DNA from: Escherichia coli
GTDB lineage: Bacteria > Pseudomonadota > Gammaproteobacteria > Enterobacterales > Enterobacteriaceae
Direction: 5' to 3' (one strand)
Assembly (NCBI RefSeq): GCF_017348835.2
Contig: NZ_CP071375.1
Length of the DNA: 64,000 nt
A program made the position numbers and the translations under genes. This document shows, piece by piece, positions 9,339 to 24,925 of the stretch (position 1 is the first letter of the stretch; each line of letters begins with the position of its first letter). The notes under the pieces were generated by a model that did no database searches, was not told the origin of the DNA, and was given only the letters and a program-made list of their open reading frames with translations.

Positions 9339-11892
9339 ACCGGTAGGCGATCTGGTCGTTGATTTAAGTCTGGATGCGGCCAGATTTGACGAGCAGATGG
9401 CCAGAGTCAGGCGTCATTTTTCCGGTACGGAAAGTGATGCGAAAAAAACAGCGGCAGTCGTTGAACAGTCGCTGAGCCGACAGGCGCTGGCTGCACAGAA
9501 AGCGGGGATTTCCGTCGGGCAGTATAAAGCCGCCATGCGTATGCTGCCTGCACAGTTCACCGACGTGGCCACGCAGCTTGCAGGCGGGCAAAGTCCGTGG
9601 CTGATCCTGCTGCAACAGGGGGGGCAGGTGAAGGACTCCTTCGGCGGGATGATCCCCATGTTCAGGGGGCTTGCCGGTGCGATCACCCTGCCGATGGTGG
9701 GGGCCACCTCGCTGGCGGTGGCGACCGGTGCGCTGGCGTATGCCTGGTATCAGGGCAACTCAACCCTGTCCGATTTCAACAAAACGCTGGTCCTTTCCGG
9801 CAATCAGGCGGGACTGACGGCAGATCGTATGCTGGTCCTGTCCAGAGCCGGGCAGGCGGCAGGGCTGACGTTTAACCAGACCAGCGAGTCACTCAGCGCA
9901 CTGGTTAAGGCGGGGGTAAGCGGTGAGGCTCAGATTGCGTCCATCAGCCAGAGTGTGGCGCGTTTCTCCTCTGCATCCGGCGTGGAGGTGGACAAGGTCG
10001 CTGAAGCCTTCGGGAAGCTGACCACAGACCCGACGTCGGGGCTGACGGCGATGGCACGCCAGTTCCATAACGTGACGGCGGAGCAGATTGCGTATGTTGC
10101 TCAGTTGCAGCGTTCCGGCGATGAAGCCGGGGCATTGCAGGCGGCGAACGAGGCCGCAACGAAAGGGTTTGATGACCAGACCCGCCGCCTGAAAGAGAAC
10201 ATGGGCACGCTGGAGACCTGGGCAGACAGGACTGCGCGGGCCTTCAAATCCATGTGGGATGCGGTGCTGGATATTGGTCGTCCTGATACCGCGCAGGAGA
10301 TGCTGATTAAGGCAGAGGCTGCGTTTAAGAAAGCAGACGACATCTGGAATCTGCGCAAGGATGATTATTTTGTTAACGATGAAGCGCGGGCGCGTTACTG
10401 GGATGATCGTGAAAAGGCCCGTCTTGCGCTTGAAGCCGCCCGAAAGAAGGCTGAGCAGCAGACTCAACAGGACAAAAATGCGCAGCAGCAGAGCGATACC
10501 GAAGCGTCACGGCTGAAATATACCGAAGAGGCGCAGAAGGCTTACAAACGGCTGCAGACGCCGCTGGAGAAATATACCGCCCGTCAGGAAGAACTGAACA
10601 AGGCACTGAAAGACGGGAAAATCCTGCAGGCGGATTACAACACGCTGATGGCGGCGGCGAAAAAGGATTATGAAGCGACGCTGAAAAAGCCGAAACAGTC
10701 CGGCGTGAAGGTGTCTGCGGGCGATCGTCAGGAAGACAGTGCTCATGCTGCCCTGCTGACGCTTCAGGCAGAACTCCGGACGCTGGAGAAGCATGCCGGA
10801 GCGAATGAGAAAATCAGCCAGCAGCGCCGGGATTTGTGGAAGGCAGAAAGTCAGTTCGCGGTACTGGAGGAGGCGGCACAACGTCGCCAGCTGTCCGCAC
10901 AGGAGAAATCCCTGCTGGCGCATAAAGATGAGACGCTGGAGTACAAACGCCAGCTGGCTGCACTTGGCGACAAGGTTACGTATCAGGAGCGCCTGAACGC
11001 GCTGGCGCAGCAGGCGGATAAATTCGCACAGCAGCAACGGGCAAAACGGGCCGCCATTGATGCGAAAAGCCGGGGGCTGACTGACCGGCAGGCAGAACGG
11101 GAAGCCACGGAACAGCGCCTGAAGGAACAGTATGGCGATAATCCGCTGGCGCTGAATAACGTCATGTCAGAGCAGAAAAAGACCTGGGCGGCTGAAGACC
11201 AGCTTCGCGGGAGCTGGATGGCAGGCCTGAAGTCCGGCTGGAGTGAGTGGGAAGAGAGCGCCACGGACAGTATGTCGCAGGTAAAAAGTGCAGCCACGCA
11301 GACCTTTGATGGTATTGCACAGAATATGGCAGCGATGCTGACCGGCAGTGAGCAGAACTGGCGCAGCTTCACCCGTTCCGTGCTGTCCATGATGACAGAA
11401 ATTCTGCTTAAGCAGGCAATGGTGGGGATTGTCGGGAGTATCGGCAGCGCCATTGGCGGGGCTGTTGGTGGCGGCGCATCCGCGTCAGGCGGTACAGCCA
11501 TTCAGGCCGCTGCGGCGAAATTCCATTTTGCAACCGGAGGATTTACGGGAACCGGCGGCAAATATGAGCCAGCGGGGATTGTTCACCGTGGTGAATTTGT
11601 CTTCACGAAGGAGGCAACCAGCCGGATTGGCGTGGGGAATCTCTACCGGCTGATGCGCGGCTATGCCACCGGTGGTTATGTCGGTACACCGGGCAGTCTG
11701 GCTGACAGCCGGTCGCAGGCGTCCGGGACGTTTGAGCAGAATAACCATGTGGTGATTAACAACGACGGCACGAACGGGCAGATAGGTCCGGCTGCTCTGA
11801 AGGCGGTGTATGACATGGCCCGCAAGGGTGCCCGTGATGAAATTCAGACACAGATGCGTGATGGTGGCCTGTTCTCCGGAGGTGGACGATGA
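9331..11892 (+). CDS. H: Tail tape measure protein H
   Basis: 853 aa, long coiled-coil-like middle and Gly-rich C-terminal part, lambda gpH length. Confidence 0.93.
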   Translation: MAEPVGDLVVDLSLDAARFDEQMARVRRHFSGTESDAKKTAAVVEQSLSRQALAAQKAGISVGQYKAAMRMLPAQFTDVATQLAGGQSPWLILLQQGGQVKDSFGGMIPMFRGLAGAITLPMVGATSLAVATGALAYAWYQGNSTLSDFNKTLVLSGNQAGLTADRMLVLSRAGQAAGLTFNQTSESLSALVKAGVSGEAQIASISQSVARFSSASGVEVDKVAEAFGKLTTDPTSGLTAMARQFHNVTAEQIAYVAQLQRSGDEAGALQAANEAATKGFDDQTRRLKENMGTLETWADRTARAFKSMWDAVLDIGRPDTAQEMLIKAEAAFKKADDIWNLRKDDYFVNDEARARYWDDREKARLALEAARKKAEQQTQQDKNAQQQSDTEASRLKYTEEAQKAYKRLQTPLEKYTARQEELNKALKDGKILQADYNTLMAAAKKDYEATLKKPKQSGVKVSAGDRQEDSAHAALLTLQAELRTLEKHAGANEKISQQRRDLWKAESQFAVLEEAAQRRQLSAQEKSLLAHKDETLEYKRQLAALGDKVTYQERLNALAQQADKFAQQQRAKRAAIDAKSRGLTDRQAEREATEQRLKEQYGDNPLALNNVMSEQKKTWAAEDQLRGSWMAGLKSGWSEWEESATDSMSQVKSAATQTFDGIAQNMAAMLTGSEQNWRSFTRSVLSMMTEILLKQAMVGIVGSIGSAIGGAVGGGASASGGTAIQAAAAKFHFATGGFTGTGGKYEPAGIVHRGEFVFTKEATSRIGVGNLYRLMRGYATGGYVGTPGSLADSRSQASGTFEQNNHVVINNDGTNGQIGPAALKAVYDMARKGARDEIQTQMRDGGLFSGGGR

Positions 11893-18441: not shown

Positions 18442-21402
18442 ATGGCAGTAAAGATTTCAGGTGTACTGAAAGACGGCACAGGAAAACCGGTACAGAACTG
18501 CATAATCCAGCTGAAAGCAAAACGTAACAGCACCACGGTGGTGGTGAACACGCTGGCCTCAGAAAATCCGGATGAAGCCGGGCGTTACAGCATGGACGTT
18601 GAGTACGGTCAGTACAGCGTTATTCTGTTGGTGGAGGGATTCCCGCCGTCACATGCCGGGACCATCACCGTGTATGAAGATTCTCAACCCGGTACGCTGA
18701 ATGATTTTCTCGGTGCCATGACGGAGGATGATGCCCGTCCGGAGGCACTGCGTCGTTTTGAACTGATGGTGGAAGAGGTGGCGCGTAACGCGTCCGTGGT
18801 GGCACAGAACACGGCAGCCGCAAAGAAGTCAGCCAGTGATGCCAGCACATCTGCCAGTGAGGCGGCAACCCGTGCGACTGATGCTGCAGATTCAGCACGT
18901 GCAGCCAGCACGTCAGCCGGACAGGCCGCGTCGTCGGCTCAGTCAGCGTCTTCCAGCGCAGGAACGGCATCAGCAAAAGCCTCTGAGGCATCAAAAAGTG
19001 CTGCCGCTGCAGAGTCCTCAAAAAGCGCGGCGGCTACCAGTGCCGGTGCGGCGAAAACGTCAGAAACGAATGCGGCAGCGTCAGAACAATCAGCCGCCAC
19101 TTCTGCATCCACCGCGACCACGAAAGCGTCAGAAGCTGCCACCTCAGCCCGGGATGCGGCGGCCTCAAAAGAGGCGGCAAAATCATCAGAAACGAGCGCA
19201 GCCTCGAGCGCCAGTAATGCCGCTTCCTCGGCAACGGCGGCAGGAAATTCCGCGAAGGCGGCAAAGACGTCTGAGACAAACGCTAAGTCCTCTGAAACGG
19301 CAGCAGCACAGAGTGCCTCCGCAGGCGCAGACTCAAAAACAGCGGCTGCATCATCTGCCAGCGCCGCGTCAACAAGTGCCGGGCAGGCCTCAGCCAGTGC
19401 CACCGCTGCCGGAAAGTCGGCAGAAAGTGCCGCATCGTCTGCTTCAACAGCCACAACGAAGGCTGGCGAAGCCACTGAACAGGCCAGCGCAGCAGCGAGT
19501 TCTGCTTCCGCAGCGAAGACATCCGAAACGAACGCGAAAGCGTCGGAAACCAGCGCAGAATCCTCAAAAACTGCTGCCGCATCGTCAGCCAGTTCGGCGG
19601 CGTCATCGGCATCATCTGCGTCTGCTTCAAAAGATGAGGCGACCAGACAAGCGTCAGCAGCGAAGAGCAGCGCCACGACGGCATCCACGAAGGCGACAGA
19701 GGCAGCTGGCAGTGCGACGGCGGCAGCTCAGAGCAAAAGTACGGCGGAATCCGCGGCAACGCGCGCCGAGACAGCGGCAAAACGGGCAGAGGATATTGCA
19801 TCCGCCGTGGCGCTTGAAGATGCGAGCACGACGAAAAAGGGGATAGTACAGCTCAGCAGTGCGACTAACAGCACTTCCGAGTCACTGGCGGCAACGCCAA
19901 AAGCAGTTAAGTCCGCGTATGACCTGGCTAACGGGAAATACACCGCACAGGATGCAACGACAGCACAGAAAGGGATAGTTCAGCTCAGCAGCGCGACCAA
20001 CAGCACATCTGAAATGCTGGCGGCAACGCCAAAGTCGGTAAAGGCAGCCTATGACCTTGCTAACGGGAAATATACCGCTCAGGACGCTACGACAGCACAA
20101 AAAGGAATTATCCAGCTCAGTAGTGCAACCAACAGCGCATCTGAAACGCTTGCCGCGACACCGAAAGCAGTGAAAGCAGCTAATGATAATGCGAATGGTC
20201 GGGTACCTTCTGCCCGTAAGGTGAATGGTAAGGCGCTTTCAGCGGATATAACACTGACGCCGAAAGATATTGGTACGCTTAACTCAACAACAATGTCATT
20301 CAGCGGTGGTGCTGGTTGGTTCAAATTAGCAACGGTAACCATGCCACAGGCGAGTTCTGTTGTTTCAATTACGTTGATTGGTGGCGCGGGATTTAACGTG
20401 GGGTCACCTCAACAGGCAGGTATATCTGAACTTGTTTTGCGTGCAGGTAATGGTAATCCGAAGGGGATTACTGGTGCTTTATGGCAGCGCACATCGACAG
20501 GGTTTACAAATTTTGCCTGGGTCAATACATCTGGTGATACTTACGATATTTACGTTGCAATCGGAAATTATGCGACTGGTGTAAATATTCAATGGGATTA
20601 TACCAGTAATGCCAGCGTGACTATTCATACGTCACCAGCATATTCTGCTAATAAGCCGGAAGGGTTAACGGACGGTACAGTTTATTCACTCTATACGCCA
20701 TCAGAGCAGTTTTATCCGCCTGGCGCACCAATCCCGTGGCCATCAGATACCGTTCCGTCTGGTTATGCCCTGATGCAGGGGCAGACTTTTGACAAATCTG
20801 CATACCCGAAACTTGCAGCCGCTTATCCGTCAGGCGTGATCCCTGATATGCGTGGCTGGACGATTAAGGGCAAACCCGCCAGTGGTCGTGCCGTATTGTC
20901 TCAGGAACAGGACGGCATTAAATCGCACACCCACAGCGCCAGCGCATCCAGTACGGATTTGGGGACGAAAACCACATCGTCGTTTGATTACGGCACTAAA
21001 TCCACGAATAACACCGGGGCTCATACGCACAGTCTGAGCGGCTCTACAAGCTCGGCCGGAGCACACTCGCACGTTGATGGTCGCAGGTTTAATACAAGCA
21101 CTTTTAAAGACACCTATCAGTATGGTTCTACAGCTGTCGGAAGTAACTCATACCAGGTACAAGGGGCGGTTGGTCTGGGCATTGGCACGATGGCGAATAC
21201 GAACTCTGCTGGCGCGCATACCCACTCACTGTCCGGCACTGCTGCAAGCGCAGGTGCACACGCACATACTGTCGGTATTGGTGCTCATACGCACTCCGTT
21301 GCGATTGGCTCACATGGACACACCATCACCGTTAACGCTGCTGGTAACGCGGAAAACACCGTCAAAAACATCGCATTTAACTATATTGTGAGGCTTGCAT
21401 AA
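18442..21402 (+). CDS. stf: Side tail fibre protein
   Basis: 986 aa: ~330-aa Ala/Ser/Thr-rich low-complexity segment, three tandem 44-aa tail fibre repeats, His-rich distal part with GAHTHS motifs. Confidence 0.9.
19819..20214 (+). repeat. Three tandem 132-bp coding repeats inside stf (phage tail fibre repeat)
   Basis: Unit [44 protein letters not shown] repeated at 19819, 19951 and 20083. Confidence 0.85.
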
Positions 21403-22040: not shown

Positions 22041-22709
22041 CTATTTTTTCCCTGAAGCGGAAAACATTACTACAGTACCTTGAACCTTGGTTTTAACATT
22101 CTCGAAATGCTCTGAGAGTATATGTGTTAAGCCTTCTTCGGAATCTTTTGTGTTTGAAAAGATGCCTTTCTGATTGTAAATGCGCATCAGTTTTTGACCG
22201 AAGCTATTGTGCACAACTCCATCGCCAAGAATTGTGGCTCCGTATAGAGTTCCATCGTCAGTTAAGGCCTGCGCCGCATTGCGTATTACACAGCTTTTTG
22301 TAGATATATTTCCAGGCAGGCAGTGAAGAAGGTAAAACATGGAAATGGAATCAAATTGACCATGTAACGCCGCGGGATAAGGTTCAAAAACATCATGGCT
22401 AATTTTATGTTTAATTTTTGATTCCCCAGCCCTTGTAGATGCCGCGTTCAGGCTAGCTTCGTTCAAATCCATTAAAGATATCAGACTACTCTCAGGTACG
22501 TGAGTAAGGTAAAACCCAGTTCCAACACCAATATCCAGATGGTTGTTACCTAAATGTTCCAGAAAGTGTGGAAGAAGGTGTTCCTTTGTAGGACATCCCC
22601 ATGCAAGCCGATTTGATACTCCCAAAACCCACCAGTCATAAAGCTTTAGGGTAAGTGGTGTGTAAATTTTAGCCCCATCATCTGTGTTTTTTTTCATTAA
22701 TTTCACCAT
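22041..22709 (-). CDS. ybcY: Class I SAM-dependent methyltransferase (prophage cargo, YbcY-like)
   Basis: 222 aa with GxGxG SAM motif LDIGVGTGFY; no DPPY/NPPY DNA-methylase motif; symbol from remembered K-12 DLP12 gene order. Confidence 0.75.
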   Translation of the reverse strand: MVKLMKKNTDDGAKIYTPLTLKLYDWWVLGVSNRLAWGCPTKEHLLPHFLEHLGNNHLDIGVGTGFYLTHVPESSLISLMDLNEASLNAASTRAGESKIKHKISHDVFEPYPAALHGQFDSISMFYLLHCLPGNISTKSCVIRNAAQALTDDGTLYGATILGDGVVHNSFGQKLMRIYNQKGIFSNTKDSEEGLTHILSEHFENVKTKVQGTVVMFSASGKK

Positions 22710-22765: not shown

Positions 22766-23071
22766 ATGCTGCCGCAGCATAGCGATATTGAAATAGCCTG
22801 GTATGCTTCGATACAACAGGAGCCGAATGGCTGGAAGACCGTCACCACACAGTTCTACATCCAGGAATTCAGTGAGTATATTGCGCCACTGCAGGATGCT
22901 GTAGATCTGGAAATCGCAACGGAGGAAGAAAGATCGTTGCTGGAGGCATGGAATAAATATCGGGTATTGTTGAATCGAGTTGATACATCAGTAGCTCTGG
23001 GTATGAAGCTGTTTGTAACTCATGTTACAGTAACAGTCATTACTATCTCGAAGGTGCAAAATGTATATTGA
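22766..23071 (+). pseudogene. tfaX: Tail fibre assembly protein remnant (C-terminal Tfa segment only)
   Basis: 101-aa ORF containing [38 protein letters not shown], a near copy of the Tfa C-terminus; no Tfa N-domain. Confidence 0.65.
22870..22990 (+). repeat. Direct repeat copy B (within the tfa remnant)
   Basis: Pairs with 21821-21941. Confidence 0.8.
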
Positions 23072-23199
23072 TTTGATATTTTATAAATTTACTTCGAATC
23101 TGGCACGTCAACTTTTGATTAAAGTAATATCAGTTTTCGGCGAAAAAAGGACCGTGTACATGAGACGATTTCATACAATAATAACAAAAATATGAATAT

Positions 23200-23233
23200 G
23201 CTCCCAATGCAATATATGTTTTGCATTGGGAGC
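23200..23233. terminator. Perfect 13-bp-stem hairpin downstream of the hydrolase gene
   Basis: gctcccaatgcaa-tatatgtt-ttgcattgggagc read in sequence. Confidence 0.55.
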
Positions 23234-23254
23234 AAATAGCGGAATATTTTGAAA

Positions 23255-24739
23255 TTATTGTATTTCTGCTTCAGAATTTCCTGGGCAGTATATATTTTCT
23301 ATTTTTTGTGGAGTGATCAGGTGATGTACAACTGCTTTATCTACACATAAATTAACTCCGGTGAGAGCTAATGTATGCCCATCACCATTTATTGTTAGTA
23401 ACGGGCTGGAAAATTTCTCTGCCATCTTACGGGCATTAATCCAGGGCGTTGTTGGGTCGTATTTGTGTGCTATAAACAGTAAACCAGAGGGCAGAACAGT
23501 ATTTTTCAGGCGAGTTTTGTTCAGGTCGCTATGTATTGGCCATAATTCACAAAAATCAGGTGAATCGGAACGTCCATTGTCAAAGTTAATAGCCGGGAAG
23601 GCATTCGCAAGAGCGTCTTTTCGGGATTTTCGCTCTTCTGGTGTTAATTGCTCATCCCCCTGATCTACACAGAGGATTACCCCCGAAGCATCGCTTGACT
23701 CTTCTGAGGCTATCGGAGCACTGAGCGCAGTTTCAATTTCATTACTGACAATCCCCTGAGAGAACTGGCGTATGGCAGTTGCAAGGGTTGGCCATGATGA
23801 ACGCCATAGCAGAAGGTCTGTTGTTAATGATATGAGTTCATCTGAAGATATATTTTCTCTCTTACTGTCTAATAAAGGTTTGTGATGTAATTTTGATAAT
23901 AGCTCATGGAACTGAGTTATTGCCTTATCTCTGTCTGAAGAAAGCGGGCAACTTTTTGTACGCGCACACCAGGATGCAAAGCGATCAAACGTTTCCTGAT
24001 AACTCTGTGCCTGTTTGAGTTGCCATGTGAAGTTGTCCTCCAGGTCATCGATATCGACGACTCCATCAAGAACGATAGATCTTACGTTGTAGGGAAAACG
24101 TTCTGCATATAAGGCTGCAATTTGAGTTCCATACGAATACGCCACGGCTGTCAGTTGTTTATCCCCCAAGGCTTGCCTAATACGATCAATATCGTATACA
24201 GCCTCGTTAGAGCCGATATGGCGAATGACTTCGGCTCCGGTATTATGGATACAGGCATTAATTTTATTTAATACTTGTTGCTTTTCGGTTATGTTTTCCT
24301 GAGTCTCTGTATCTGATTGCCGGCAGTTTATTGTCGGAGTGGACTGTCCGACGCCTCGAGGATCAAATCCAATAATATCCCATGACTCACGAAGATTTGT
24401 GACTGGCCAGTCAAAGTTAATATAAGGATTTATGCCTGGTAACCCGGGACCACCACTTATTATCAGGATACTTCCTTTATGCTTGCTTTTTGCCGGCAAT
24501 TTTGTCAACGCTAGTTTGACTTGTGATTTTTTTTCATAAGAAGCATCTCCGCCTGTGTCTGTATATTTTAATGGAACAGACAAATAACCACATAGTAAGT
24601 CAGGAGACGGTTTTTCCTCACCAAACCAGTGGTTGAATTGACTGGCCATACAGGATTGCCACTGTATCTGCTGGGCAGATACGGTTACTGGTAGAAGTAA
24701 CGTTAAAACAACTTTGAAATGAGTAATTATTTTTCGCAT
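23255..24739 (-). CDS. Secreted alpha/beta-hydrolase, peptidase S33 / TAP-like family, unknown substrate
   Basis: 494 aa; signal peptide MRKIITHFKVVLTLLLPVTVSAQQ; GGPG oxyanion motif, FDPRGVGQS, nucleophile elbow AYSYG, C-terminal Asp (KYDPTTP) and His (NGDGHT); low-GC gene. Confidence 0.7.
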   Translation of the reverse strand: MRKIITHFKVVLTLLLPVTVSAQQIQWQSCMASQFNHWFGEEKPSPDLLCGYLSVPLKYTDTGGDASYEKKSQVKLALTKLPAKSKHKGSILIISGGPGLPGINPYINFDWPVTNLRESWDIIGFDPRGVGQSTPTINCRQSDTETQENITEKQQVLNKINACIHNTGAEVIRHIGSNEAVYDIDRIRQALGDKQLTAVAYSYGTQIAALYAERFPYNVRSIVLDGVVDIDDLEDNFTWQLKQAQSYQETFDRFASWCARTKSCPLSSDRDKAITQFHELLSKLHHKPLLDSKRENISSDELISLTTDLLLWRSSWPTLATAIRQFSQGIVSNEIETALSAPIASEESSDASGVILCVDQGDEQLTPEERKSRKDALANAFPAINFDNGRSDSPDFCELWPIHSDLNKTRLKNTVLPSGLLFIAHKYDPTTPWINARKMAEKFSSPLLTINGDGHTLALTGVNLCVDKAVVHHLITPQKIENIYCPGNSEAEIQ

Positions 24740-24925
24740 TGTGTCTCTGAATATCGGAATAAAGATAAGATTTGAATATATTGAGGTCTTGTGTTGCGGT
24801 AAGAGATTACACGTTATGACATAGGTTAAATGCTTACAAAATTAGTGGATATTGCCTACTTGTAACTGTAAACAAATTCCCCGGGGTTATACAATACCAC
24901 CGGGGAGAAAATCTGGTTAACTTCG

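What the first reader, a model, noticed from the sequence alone, without database searches (positions are those of the whole stretch)
23255..24739. Low-GC secreted S33/TAP-like hydrolase as prophage cargo next to ompT, in the slot where K-12 carries appY
A 494-aa protein with a signal peptide and a complete Ser-Asp-His alpha/beta-hydrolase triad is encoded in a markedly AT-rich gene between the tfa remnant and ompT, inside the att-bounded prophage. As I remember the K-12 DLP12 order (tfaD-ybcY-tfaX-appY-ompT), this position holds the AraC-type regulator appY, so the cassette appears exchanged. A secreted peptidase or esterase beside an outer-membrane protease is an uncharacterised cargo pair that could act on host peptides or on incoming phage or competitor surfaces.
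Basis: partly seen in the sequence, partly recalled or inferred. Interest (0 to 1): 0.6.

Follow-up and report, generated by a model that had tools for sequence, protein, structure and literature searches.

The report
Hip1-like exported hydrolase partnered with OmpT
The gene is real and encodes an exported serine hydrolase related to the tuberculosis protease Hip1; it is a common but unstudied E. coli phage and plasmid gene that always travels just downstream of an OmpT/OmpP outer-membrane protease gene, and K-12 has lost it.

Summary
Window 23255-24739 (minus strand) encodes a 494-aa protein with a Sec-type signal peptide. It matches Pfam Abhydrolase_1 and the TAP-like C-terminal domain. It is homologous over its full length to M. 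tuberculosis Hip1 (E 4e-51; model TM 0.75-0.80), with Ser202/Asp428/His455 and ten cysteines conserved.

It lies at the right end of an argU-type lambdoid prophage, between a tfaX remnant and ompT. This is the position where K-12 has appY.

The gene is not rare. It is in 1253 of 5426 complete E. coli genomes, more than appY (837). It is ECs_1662 "hydrolase" in O157:H7 Sakai prophage Sp8, and isolated temperate coliphages carry it.

The new point is linkage. Every homologue of at least 76% identity whose neighbourhood I examined sits 92-188 bp downstream of an omptin gene, on the same strand, in unrelated flanks. The two genes have diverged in parallel, and the hydrolase is under purifying selection (dN/dS 0.11-0.14). 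UPEC-type loci are a clean 1977-bp deletion of it.

I read it as a periplasmic Hip1/TAP-like serine peptidase or esterase inherited with omptins as a two-gene mobile module. Functional cooperation with the omptin is inferred, not shown. It is a new member of a known family, of moderate interest.

The parts
23255..24739 (-). Hip1/TAP-like alpha/beta-hydrolase gene, 494 aa. Catalytic codons: S202 at 24134-24136, D428 at 23456-23458, H455 at 23375-23377. There are ten cysteines, at residues 30, 50, 139, 163, 258, 264, 357, 397, 465 and 485.
24674..24739 (-). Codons 1-22, a predicted Sec (signal peptidase I) signal peptide, MRKIITHFKVVLTLLLPVTVSA. Cleavage would come before QQIQWQSC.
   Evidence: Read from the sequence. 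The VSA|(Q/R)QI(Q/E)WQSC junction is conserved in the plasmid and OmpP-linked copies. W27 and C30 are at least 90% conserved. Residues 1-20 have low pLDDT.
24870..24906 (-). GC-rich hairpin (UCUCCCCGGUGG...CCCCGGGGA) plus a U-rich tail, starting about 20 nt after the ompT stop codon. It is a terminator or attenuator between ompT and the hydrolase gene.
   Evidence: The same hairpin follows the omptin stop in the OmpP-type and plasmid modules and in K-12.
24926..25879 (-). ompT, the omptin outer-membrane protease (317 aa). It is the upstream partner of the hydrolase gene.
   Evidence: NF008222, 708 bits against a cut-off of 537
23199..23234 (-). 14-bp-stem terminator-like hairpin 21 nt downstream of the hydrolase stop codon.
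23171..25997 (-). Extent of the shared omptin-hydrolase module. This is the stretch homologous (91.6%) to the copy on a plasmid that also carries iro genes. The O157:H7 copy shares the same right-hand limit (25992).
22966..24921 (.). Segment that differs from K-12, where a 1602-bp, 30% GC segment carrying appY takes its place.
22766..23071 (+). tfaX-like tail-fibre-assembly remnant, which borders the cassette on the left.
22041..22709 (-). Intact ybcY SAM-dependent methyltransferase (222 aa). It belongs to the same phage cargo region.
26309..26346 (+). attR of the prophage, a duplicated 3' end of the argU tRNA-Arg gene. The hydrolase and ompT lie just inside it.
   Evidence: K-12 annotates the end of DLP12 at the equivalent point

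Best explanation
The gene encodes a Sec-exported, disulfide-rich periplasmic serine hydrolase of the TAP/Hip1 branch of peptidase family S33.

Shown here:
- It has an alpha/beta-hydrolase core with a helical lid.
- Ser202 sits in an A-Y-S-Y-G-T nucleophile elbow. Asp428 sits in D-P-T-T-P. His455 sits in G-D-G-H-T.
- It is the downstream gene of a roughly 2.8-kb two-gene module, omptin then hydrolase. This module moves on argU-type lambdoid phages and on IncF (some ColV-type) plasmids of E. coli and Shigella.
- The module has been kept intact and under purifying selection since before OmpT and OmpP diverged.

Inferred:
- The hydrolase is probably transcribed at least partly by read-through of a conserved hairpin that follows the omptin stop codon. 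It would then be made together with the omptin but at a lower level.
- It most likely acts as an envelope peptidase with esterase side-activity, as Hip1 does. It could finish or complement omptin proteolysis, for example by degrading fragments of cationic antimicrobial peptides or other omptin products that reach the periplasm.

K-12 (appY replacement) and the UPEC/EPEC-type strains (1977-bp deletion) have lost the gene.
For: Family and active site:
- Pfam Abhydrolase_1 (9e-34) plus the TAP-like C-terminal domain (1e-13).
- Full-length match to Hip1 chains 7sfm, 8e5w and 5ugq at E 4e-51.
- AF2 model with pLDDT 87.4. Its best PDB matches are Hip1 structures, TM 0.75-0.80, E 1e-33.
- S202, D428, T431, H455 and ten cysteines are invariant or nearly so across 30 homologues.
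- Hip1 has the triad S228/D463/H490, five predicted disulfides, and both protease and esterase activity (PMC4022732). The D-to-H spacing of 27 residues and the Thr three residues after the Asp (Hip1 T466; the 5uoh entry is the T466A mutant) are the same here.

Module:
- An omptin gene lies directly upstream, on the same strand, in the window, E2865, O157:H7 Sakai Sp8, two plasmids that also carry iroN (one of them also cvi), 156 or more OmpP plasmids, and four diverged variants from metagenomes and assemblies.
- Omptin and hydrolase identity to the window pair fall together: 99.1/99.2, 91.2/94.9, 79.2/81.6, 72.4/78.6, 72.6/77.6 and 69.7/75.6%.
- Hydrolase dN/dS is 0.11-0.14, with dN tracking that of the omptin.
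- 1229 E. coli genomes hold at least 80% of the gene, and 1235 hold the ompT-hydrolase junction.
- Isolated temperate phages (2G7b, ev243, PhiR26_1, Turner) carry ybcY-tfaX-hydrolase-ompT next to int.

Expression:
- The hairpin is conserved in all variants. In OmpP-type modules only about 45 nt separate it from an AGGAG ribosome-binding site and the start codon.
- No sigma-70-like site was found in the 186-bp gap.
- ECs1662 and ompT (ECs1663) fall in the same expression cluster, with log2 changes of -2.5 and -2.7 in O157 Sakai (PMC2241611; gene identity confirmed).
Against: - No biochemical or genetic data exist for this protein in the library searched.
- Close physical linkage alone could explain co-inheritance.
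- Homologues of 54% identity or less, in Budvicia, Salmonella, Serratia, Pantoea and actinobacteria, have no omptin neighbour. The family therefore works without one.
- ompT does well without the hydrolase in about 60% of the genomes that carry ompT.
- The hairpin could be an efficient terminator, which would make the two genes separate transcription units. The two microarray values come from different tables and growth transitions.
- The same fold also houses non-peptidases, TnmK1 and TnmK2.
- The signal peptide and the disulfides are predictions.
Confidence: 0.6

Rival explanations
1. Independent passenger enzyme. The protein would be a periplasmic esterase, lipase or lactonase (or a peptidase) with a substrate of its own, such as a dietary or host ester or peptide. 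It would be linked to omptin genes only because the two were captured together once and lie too close to be separated often.
For: - Distant homologues occur alone on plasmids and near insertion sequences, without omptins.
- Hip1 has esterase activity.
- Phage records call the gene 'putative lactone hydrolase'.
- A terminator-like hairpin separates the two genes.
- ompT is often kept without it.
Against: - The linkage survives divergence to dS of about 1 or more, in at least five unrelated flanking contexts with many insertion sequences nearby.
- Losses in E. coli chromosomes are one-sided. The hydrolase is lost twice, and hydrolase without the ompT junction is essentially not seen.
- In OmpP-type modules the gap is too short for an obvious separate promoter.
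Confidence: 0.27
2. Anti-phage or anti-competitor function. The hydrolase, alone or with OmpT, would serve the prophage as a superinfection-exclusion or defence factor, or would degrade colicins and other proteinaceous toxins.
For: - PADLOC-DB model PDLC01094 ('C3a206, TAP-like protein') matches the protein full-length at E 3e-55.
- The gene sits in the cargo region of a temperate phage, between the tail-fibre genes and att.
- From general knowledge, not tested here: OmpT cleaves several colicins.
Against: - The PADLOC score (186 bits) is at the same family level as the match to Hip1 (177 bits).
- The model belongs to an untested candidate whose partner genes I could not look up.
- The paper I checked for a description of such candidates does not mention a hydrolase or TAP-like component.
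- The module is equally common on plasmids that also carry salmochelin (iro) and colicin V immunity genes.
Confidence: 0.08
3. Decaying or non-functional remnant carried along by the prophage.
For: It has been lost in most ompT-bearing lineages. Its ribosome-binding site is weak in this variant (AGAGA rather than AGGAG).
Against: - All seven diverged copies examined are intact.
- dN/dS is 0.11-0.14.
- The catalytic residues and all ten cysteines are conserved.
- Identity is at least 99% in 1212 records.
- It is transcribed and regulated in O157 Sakai.
Confidence: 0.03

Closest known systems
Mycobacterium tuberculosis Hip1 (Rv2224c, CaeA), a cell-envelope serine protease/esterase of the TAP branch of S33 (PDB 5UGQ, 7SFM, 8E5W)
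   Same: - Full-length homology at E 4e-51, about 27% identity.
- The same fold, TM 0.75-0.80.
- Ser-Asp-His triad in the same motifs, with the same D-x-x-T and 27-residue Asp-to-His spacing.
- Nine of the ten cysteines align with Hip1 cysteines, and Hip1 has five predicted disulfides.
- Both are exported envelope proteins.
   Different: - The host is Gram-negative, and the gene is carried on phages and plasmids.
- It has a cleavable signal peptide with no sign of a membrane or lipid anchor.
- The first Gly of the G-x-S-x-G motif is Ala.
- The gene is paired with an omptin gene, which has no counterpart in mycobacteria.
- Its substrate is unknown. Hip1 cleaves GroEL2 at Arg12-Gly13.
Streptomyces tripeptidyl aminopeptidases Tap, SlpD and SlpE (MEROPS S33, the source of the Pfam TAP-like C-terminal domain)
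   Same: The domain pair Abhydrolase_1 plus Abhydrolase_4/TAP-like. They are exported or cell-associated serine peptidases. Hip1 is 30-38% identical to them.
   Different: I made no direct comparison here. Whether the E. coli enzyme removes N-terminal tripeptides is unknown.
TnmK1/TnmK2, alpha/beta-hydrolase-fold proteins of tiancimycin biosynthesis (PDB 8E18, 8G5T)
   Same: The next-best structural and sequence matches: E 2.8e-17 by sequence, TM about 0.75.
   Different: They are biosynthetic enzymes in an actinomycete gene cluster and are not peptidases. Identity is much lower (18-21%).
The appY cassette of the K-12 DLP12 prophage
   Same: It occupies the same slot, between tfaX and the 3' end of ompT, inside the same argU-integrated prophage remnant.
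   Different: It is an unrelated gene: an AraC-type regulator on the opposite strand, at 31.7% GC. No hydrolase remnant is left in K-12. It is less frequent, in 837 against 1253 genomes.
Lambdoid lysogenic-conversion 'moron' genes such as lom and bor
   Same: These are envelope proteins encoded in phage cargo regions near the tail-fibre genes, expressed for the benefit of the lysogen. Lom is present in the same prophage.
   Different: Here the cargo is a two-gene protease/hydrolase module, and it also circulates on plasmids.

Membership tests
Alpha/beta-hydrolase, peptidase family S33, TAP-like branch (Pfam PF00561 + PF08386) | Significant match to the alpha/beta-hydrolase fold domain | tested here: met
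   Abhydrolase_1 at E 9.3e-34, residues 91-460. The model shows the strand/helix core with a helical lid at about residues 230-410.
Alpha/beta-hydrolase, peptidase family S33, TAP-like branch (Pfam PF00561 + PF08386) | TAP-like C-terminal domain carrying the Asp and His of the triad | tested here: met
   Abhydrolase_4 at E 1.2e-13, residues 386-479. D428 and H455 are invariant.
Alpha/beta-hydrolase, peptidase family S33, TAP-like branch (Pfam PF00561 + PF08386) | Nucleophile elbow G-x-S-x-G with the catalytic Ser | tested here: met
   The sequence is A-Y-S202-Y-G-T. S-Y-G-T is invariant. The first position is Ala here and in the alignment consensus, and Gly in Hip1.
Alpha/beta-hydrolase, peptidase family S33, TAP-like branch (Pfam PF00561 + PF08386) | Peptidase (tripeptidyl or endopeptidase) activity | not testable with these tools
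   This needs purified protein. Hip1 shows both protease and esterase activity.
Hip1 (Rv2224c)-like envelope serine proteases | Full-length sequence and fold similarity to Hip1 | tested here: met
   phmmer E 4.1e-51 over residues 21-475. Foldseek E 1e-33, TM 0.75-0.80.
Hip1 (Rv2224c)-like envelope serine proteases | Triad equivalent to S228/D463/H490, plus Thr466 | tested here: met
   S202, D428, H455 and T431 align, and all are invariant.
Hip1 (Rv2224c)-like envelope serine proteases | Multiple disulfides (Hip1 has five predicted), consistent with an extracytoplasmic location | tested here: met
   The protein has exactly ten cysteines. All are invariant or at least 90% conserved, and nine align with Hip1 cysteines. 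The pairings themselves are inferred.
Hip1 (Rv2224c)-like envelope serine proteases | Anchoring to the cell envelope | tested here: inconclusive
   There is a cleavable signal peptide of the VSA|QQ type and no lipobox cysteine. This predicts a soluble periplasmic protein. Localisation is untested.
Prolyl aminopeptidase (NCBIfam TIGR01249 equivalog) | Score above the curated cut-off | tested here: not met
   35.7 bits against a cut-off of 259.75. Only the region around the nucleophile matches.
Cargo ('moron') gene of argU-integrating lambdoid phages | Located inside the prophage between the tail-fibre genes and att, and present in packaged phage genomes | tested here: met
   attR lies at 26309-26346, to the right of ompT. 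The same cassette sits next to int in phages 2G7b and PhiR26_1 and in Sakai prophage Sp8.
PADLOC candidate defence component 'C3a206, TAP-like protein' | Match to the HMM, plus the partner genes of the candidate system | tested here: inconclusive
   The HMM matches at E 3e-55. The system definition and partner genes are not available, and the score is only at family level.

The most novel reading that the evidence does not exclude
The Hip1-like hydrolase is a dedicated functional partner of OmpT/OmpP-type omptins. It would be a periplasmic second-stage peptidase, or an immunomodulatory protease like Hip1, made from the same transcript through a leaky terminator.

If so, omptin-dependent peptide resistance and virulence phenotypes in EHEC and in ompP-plasmid strains depend in part on a gene that is missing from the K-12, UPEC and EPEC reference strains in which omptins have mostly been studied.
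Probability: 0.3. Interest if true: 0.65.

Novelty: new member of a known kind. Interest (0 to 1): 0.4.

Why it matters
OmpT-family proteases are established factors in resistance to antimicrobial peptides and in virulence. Their biology has largely been worked out in K-12 and in UPEC/EPEC reference strains, and those strains lack this neighbouring gene.

About 40% of ompT-positive complete E. coli genomes carry a conserved, selected relative of a tuberculosis immune-evasion protease immediately downstream of the omptin gene. These include O157:H7, O145 and O111 strains. Most ompP plasmids in PLSDB carry one too.

If the two enzymes cooperate, differences between pathotypes in peptide degradation that are now ascribed to ompT promoter variation may have a second cause. 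The pair would also be a simple and tractable example of a mobile two-step envelope proteolysis module. If they do not cooperate, the gene is still a widespread, phage-borne exported hydrolase of unknown substrate in a major pathogen.

Tried and rejected
- **arlB idea.** I wondered whether the hydrolase might be 'arlB' of the plasmid island PI-6. A literature search gave only archaellum papers. The omptin papers I read do not mention a hydrolase. I dropped the idea.
- **Desloges et al. 2019.** They report 'ymcE' 186 bp downstream of ompT in one isolate, which is exactly the spacing seen here. This is probably the same gene under a wrong name, but I could not verify it.
- **'z1931' in EHEC supernatants.** A review cites 'z1931' as found in EHEC culture supernatants. 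By the parallel Sakai numbering z1931 is probably ompT, not the hydrolase. The primary paper (PMC2346697) is not held, and the old EDL933 record is not in the collection. This is unresolved and I did not use it.
- **Genome-contig scan.** I therefore checked the limits of the omptin linkage with single look-ups instead.
- **Promoter scan.** The sigma-70 scan found no promoter in the ompT-hydrolase gap and did not report the hairpin, whose loop is longer than 8 nt.
- **Folding of the gap.** Whole-gap folding is not significantly more stable than shuffles (z -1.6). The hairpin argument rests on its conservation across variants, not on energy.
- **Remnant in K-12.** I found no hydrolase remnant in K-12.
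- **PADLOC lead.** I could not trace the 'C3a206' model to a described system.
- **Curated families.** NCBIfam has no family for this protein, and the prolyl aminopeptidase models score far below their cut-offs.
Full report
**Observation**

The ORF is present exactly as described. It spans 23255..24739 on the minus strand, starts with ATG and encodes 494 aa.

- **Pfam.** Abhydrolase_1 matches at E 9.3e-34 over residues 91-460. The TAP-like C-terminal domain Abhydrolase_4 matches at E 1.2e-13 over residues 386-479.
- **NCBIfam.** There are only sub-threshold matches to prolyl aminopeptidase models around the nucleophile, 35.7 bits against a cut-off of 259.75.
- **N-terminus.** MRKIITHFKVVLTLLLPVTVSA|QQ has the features of a signal peptidase I signal and no lipobox.
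- **Start codon.** Some phage records and PHROG 20134 start the protein at Met31. The residues before Met31 are conserved, including W27 and C30. The VSA|(Q/R)QI(Q/E)WQSC junction is kept in diverged copies. I therefore take the long form as correct.
- **Composition.** GC is 42.2%, against 53.4% for the window. ompT (43.5%) and ybcY (40.8%) are similar, and K-12 appY is 31.7%.

**What the protein is**

- Against PDB sequences it matches M. tuberculosis Hip1 (Rv2224c/CaeA; 7sfm, 8e5w, 5ugq) over residues 21-475 at E 4e-51.
- An AlphaFold2 model built on a 30-sequence alignment has mean pLDDT 87.4 and pTM 0.88.
- The best structural matches of the model are the Hip1 entries (Foldseek E 1e-33, TM 0.75-0.80). 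Next come TnmK1 and TnmK2, and far behind come the prolyl aminopeptidases.
- In the alignment, which reaches 27% identity, S202 (in A-Y-S-Y-G-T), D428 and T431 (in D-P-T-T-P) and H455 (in G-D-G-H-T) are invariant.
- These residues align with the motifs holding Hip1 S228, D463, T466 and H490, and the Asp-to-His spacing of 27 residues is the same.
- The protein has exactly ten cysteines. All are conserved, and nine align with Hip1 cysteines. Hip1 has five predicted disulfides. This fits an extracytoplasmic enzyme.
- Hip1 is a serine protease that also hydrolyses p-nitrophenyl butyrate, and it cleaves GroEL2 at Arg12-Gly13 (PMC4022732).

**Where it sits**

- By BLASTN, window 21548-22965 matches the K-12 tfaD-to-tfaX stretch, and homology resumes at 24922, at the ompT stop codon. 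Window 22966-24921 therefore stands in place of the 1602-bp appY segment.
- K-12 keeps no remnant of the hydrolase.
- A copy of the 3' end of argU at 26309-26346 is the prophage attR, just beyond ompT. The window begins inside the prophage, so attL could not be checked.
- The nearest complete genome, strain E2865, has the same arrangement at 100% identity and calls the gene 'alpha/beta hydrolase', WP_001226384.1.

**How common it is**

| Feature | Complete E. coli genomes (of 5426) |
|---|---|
| ompT | 3094 |
| hydrolase gene | 1253 (nearly all at least 99% identical) |
| ompT-hydrolase junction | 1235 |
| appY | 837 |

- Most of the remaining ompT genomes keep about 155 bp of the ompT-hydrolase spacer at 92-94% identity and then run into ybcY.
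- In one such UPEC-type locus, the gap corresponds to a clean deletion of window 22793-24769 at a short ATTTGAA-like repeat. This is the CFT073-type context described by Desloges et al. (PMC6854850).
- In O157:H7 the pair lies at another site, at the end of lambda-like prophage Sp8 near minCDE. There it is ECs_1662 'hydrolase' and ECs_1663 ompT.
- Isolated temperate coliphages (2G7b, ev243, PhiR26_1, Turner and others) carry ybcY-tfaX-hydrolase-ompT next to int.
- The gene is therefore genuine phage cargo, and it is already annotated but unstudied. The hydrolase form is commoner than the K-12 form and is ancestral at least to the UPEC type.

**The main new point: linkage to omptin genes**

Every homologue of at least 76% amino-acid identity whose neighbourhood I examined lies 92-188 bp downstream of an omptin gene, on the same strand, although the wider flanks are unrelated. 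The contexts are:

- two IncF-type plasmids that carry iroN, one of which also carries the colicin V immunity gene cvi;
- OmpP on IncF plasmids, with 156 PLSDB plasmids covering at least 80% of the pair;
- further OmpP-like variants flanked by fimbrial, autotransporter or insertion-sequence genes.

Amino-acid identity to the window pair falls in step for the two genes:

| Omptin identity (%) | Hydrolase identity (%) |
|---|---|
| 99.1 | 99.2 |
| 91.2 | 94.9 |
| 79.2 | 81.6 |
| 72.4 | 78.6 |
| 72.6 | 77.6 |
| 69.7 | 75.6 |

- Nei-Gojobori estimates give hydrolase dN/dS of 0.11-0.14 in the deeper comparisons, and its dN tracks that of the omptin.
- The stretch shared with the plasmid copy is window 23171-25997. 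The O157 copy ends at the same right-hand limit. This defines a module of about 2.8 kb.
- Homologues of 54% identity or less have no omptin within 4-6 kb. I checked Budvicia, Salmonella, Serratia, Pantoea, unnamed contigs and about 75 actinobacterial loci.
- The pairing is therefore specific to the Escherichia OmpT/OmpP clade.
- Papers holding both 'omptin' or 'ompP' and 'beta hydrolase' were not found in the library searched.

**Expression**

- A GC-rich hairpin with a U-rich tail starts about 20 nt after the ompT stop codon, at 24906-24870.
- The same hairpin follows the omptin stop in all module variants. In OmpP-type modules only about 45 nt then remain before an AGGAG site and the hydrolase start codon.
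- The consensus scan finds no sigma-70-like promoter in the gap.
- I infer that read-through of a leaky terminator gives lower, coupled expression of the hydrolase. This is not shown.
- In O157 Sakai microarrays, ECs1662 and ompT are in the same expression cluster and fall by similar amounts (log2 -2.53 and -2.72) at growth transitions (PMC2241611).

**Mechanism, with the level of support**

- **Shown by sequence and model:** an exported-type precursor, a Hip1/TAP-like fold, an intact triad, conserved cysteines, purifying selection and co-inheritance with omptins.
- **Inferred:** a periplasmic location, disulfide bonding, peptidase activity with esterase side-activity, co-transcription with the omptin, and action on omptin products or other envelope or host peptides.

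Rivals:

- It may be an unrelated passenger enzyme kept next to omptins by proximity alone.
- It may have a defence or anti-toxin role. The hint is a full-length match (E 3e-55) to a PADLOC candidate model named 'TAP-like protein'. The score is only at family level, and I could not find the system it belongs to.
- It may be a decaying remnant. The selection data contradict this.

**Verdict**

However, the gene is common and already annotated, and K-12 is the derived state. It is a new, uncharacterised member of the Hip1/TAP-like branch of S33. The conserved omptin-hydrolase module is a modestly novel and directly testable lead. Interest 0.4.

Noticed in passing
window 26674-27981 (with envY fragments at about 26400-26673 and 27942-28466): An IS3-family element, 95.8% identical to IS1203/IS629 of O157:H7, is inserted in envY, the AraC-type regulator upstream of ompT. 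The closest complete genome (E2865) and K-12 have envY intact.
   Followed up: partly
window 22793-24769, compared with L099 (NZ_CP124353.1): UPEC/CFT073-type ompT loci look like a clean 1977-bp deletion that removed tfaX and the hydrolase gene at an ATTTGAA-like microhomology. About 155 bp of the ompT-hydrolase spacer remain.
   Followed up: yes
window 23255-24739: PADLOC-DB model PDLC01094 ('C3a206, TAP-like protein') matches the hydrolase full-length at E 3e-55. I could not identify the candidate defence system it belongs to.
   Followed up: partly
window 24650-24739; L101 (phage 2G7b, NC_049954.1): Phage records and PHROG 20134 start this protein at Met31. That drops the signal peptide and the conserved Cys30, and is probably a start-codon mis-annotation.
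   Followed up: partly
window 22041-22709: The ybcY SAM-dependent methyltransferase is intact here (222 aa), in O157:H7 and in free phages. In K-12 it is a pseudogene. It travels with the hydrolase-ompT cassette, and its function is unknown (PHROG 2132).
   Followed up: no
L005, L011-L018, and PLSDB plasmids such as NZ_CP076263.1: The plasmid omptin gene ompP is followed by its own copy of the hydrolase (76% identical to the one here) on more than 150 mostly conjugative plasmids, many from cattle. Several OmpP-like sub-variants exist in metagenome assemblies.
   Followed up: yes
PMC6854850 (Desloges et al. 2019), ompT context of isolate 'cystitis 6': The paper names the gene 186 bp downstream of ompT as 'ymcE, a putative cold shock gene'. 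The spacing equals the ompT-hydrolase gap here, so this is probably the hydrolase under a wrong automatic name.
   Followed up: no
window 18442-21402: The side tail-fibre protein (986 aa) has a long, low-complexity Ala/Ser/Thr-rich repeat region in its N-terminal half. This raises local GC to about 61%.
   Followed up: no
window 24870-24906; K-12 L002 about 10636-10670: The hairpin after the ompT stop codon is also recognisable, in diverged form, in K-12. The true K-12 breakpoint therefore probably lies a few tens of bases beyond the point where BLASTN stops.
   Followed up: partly
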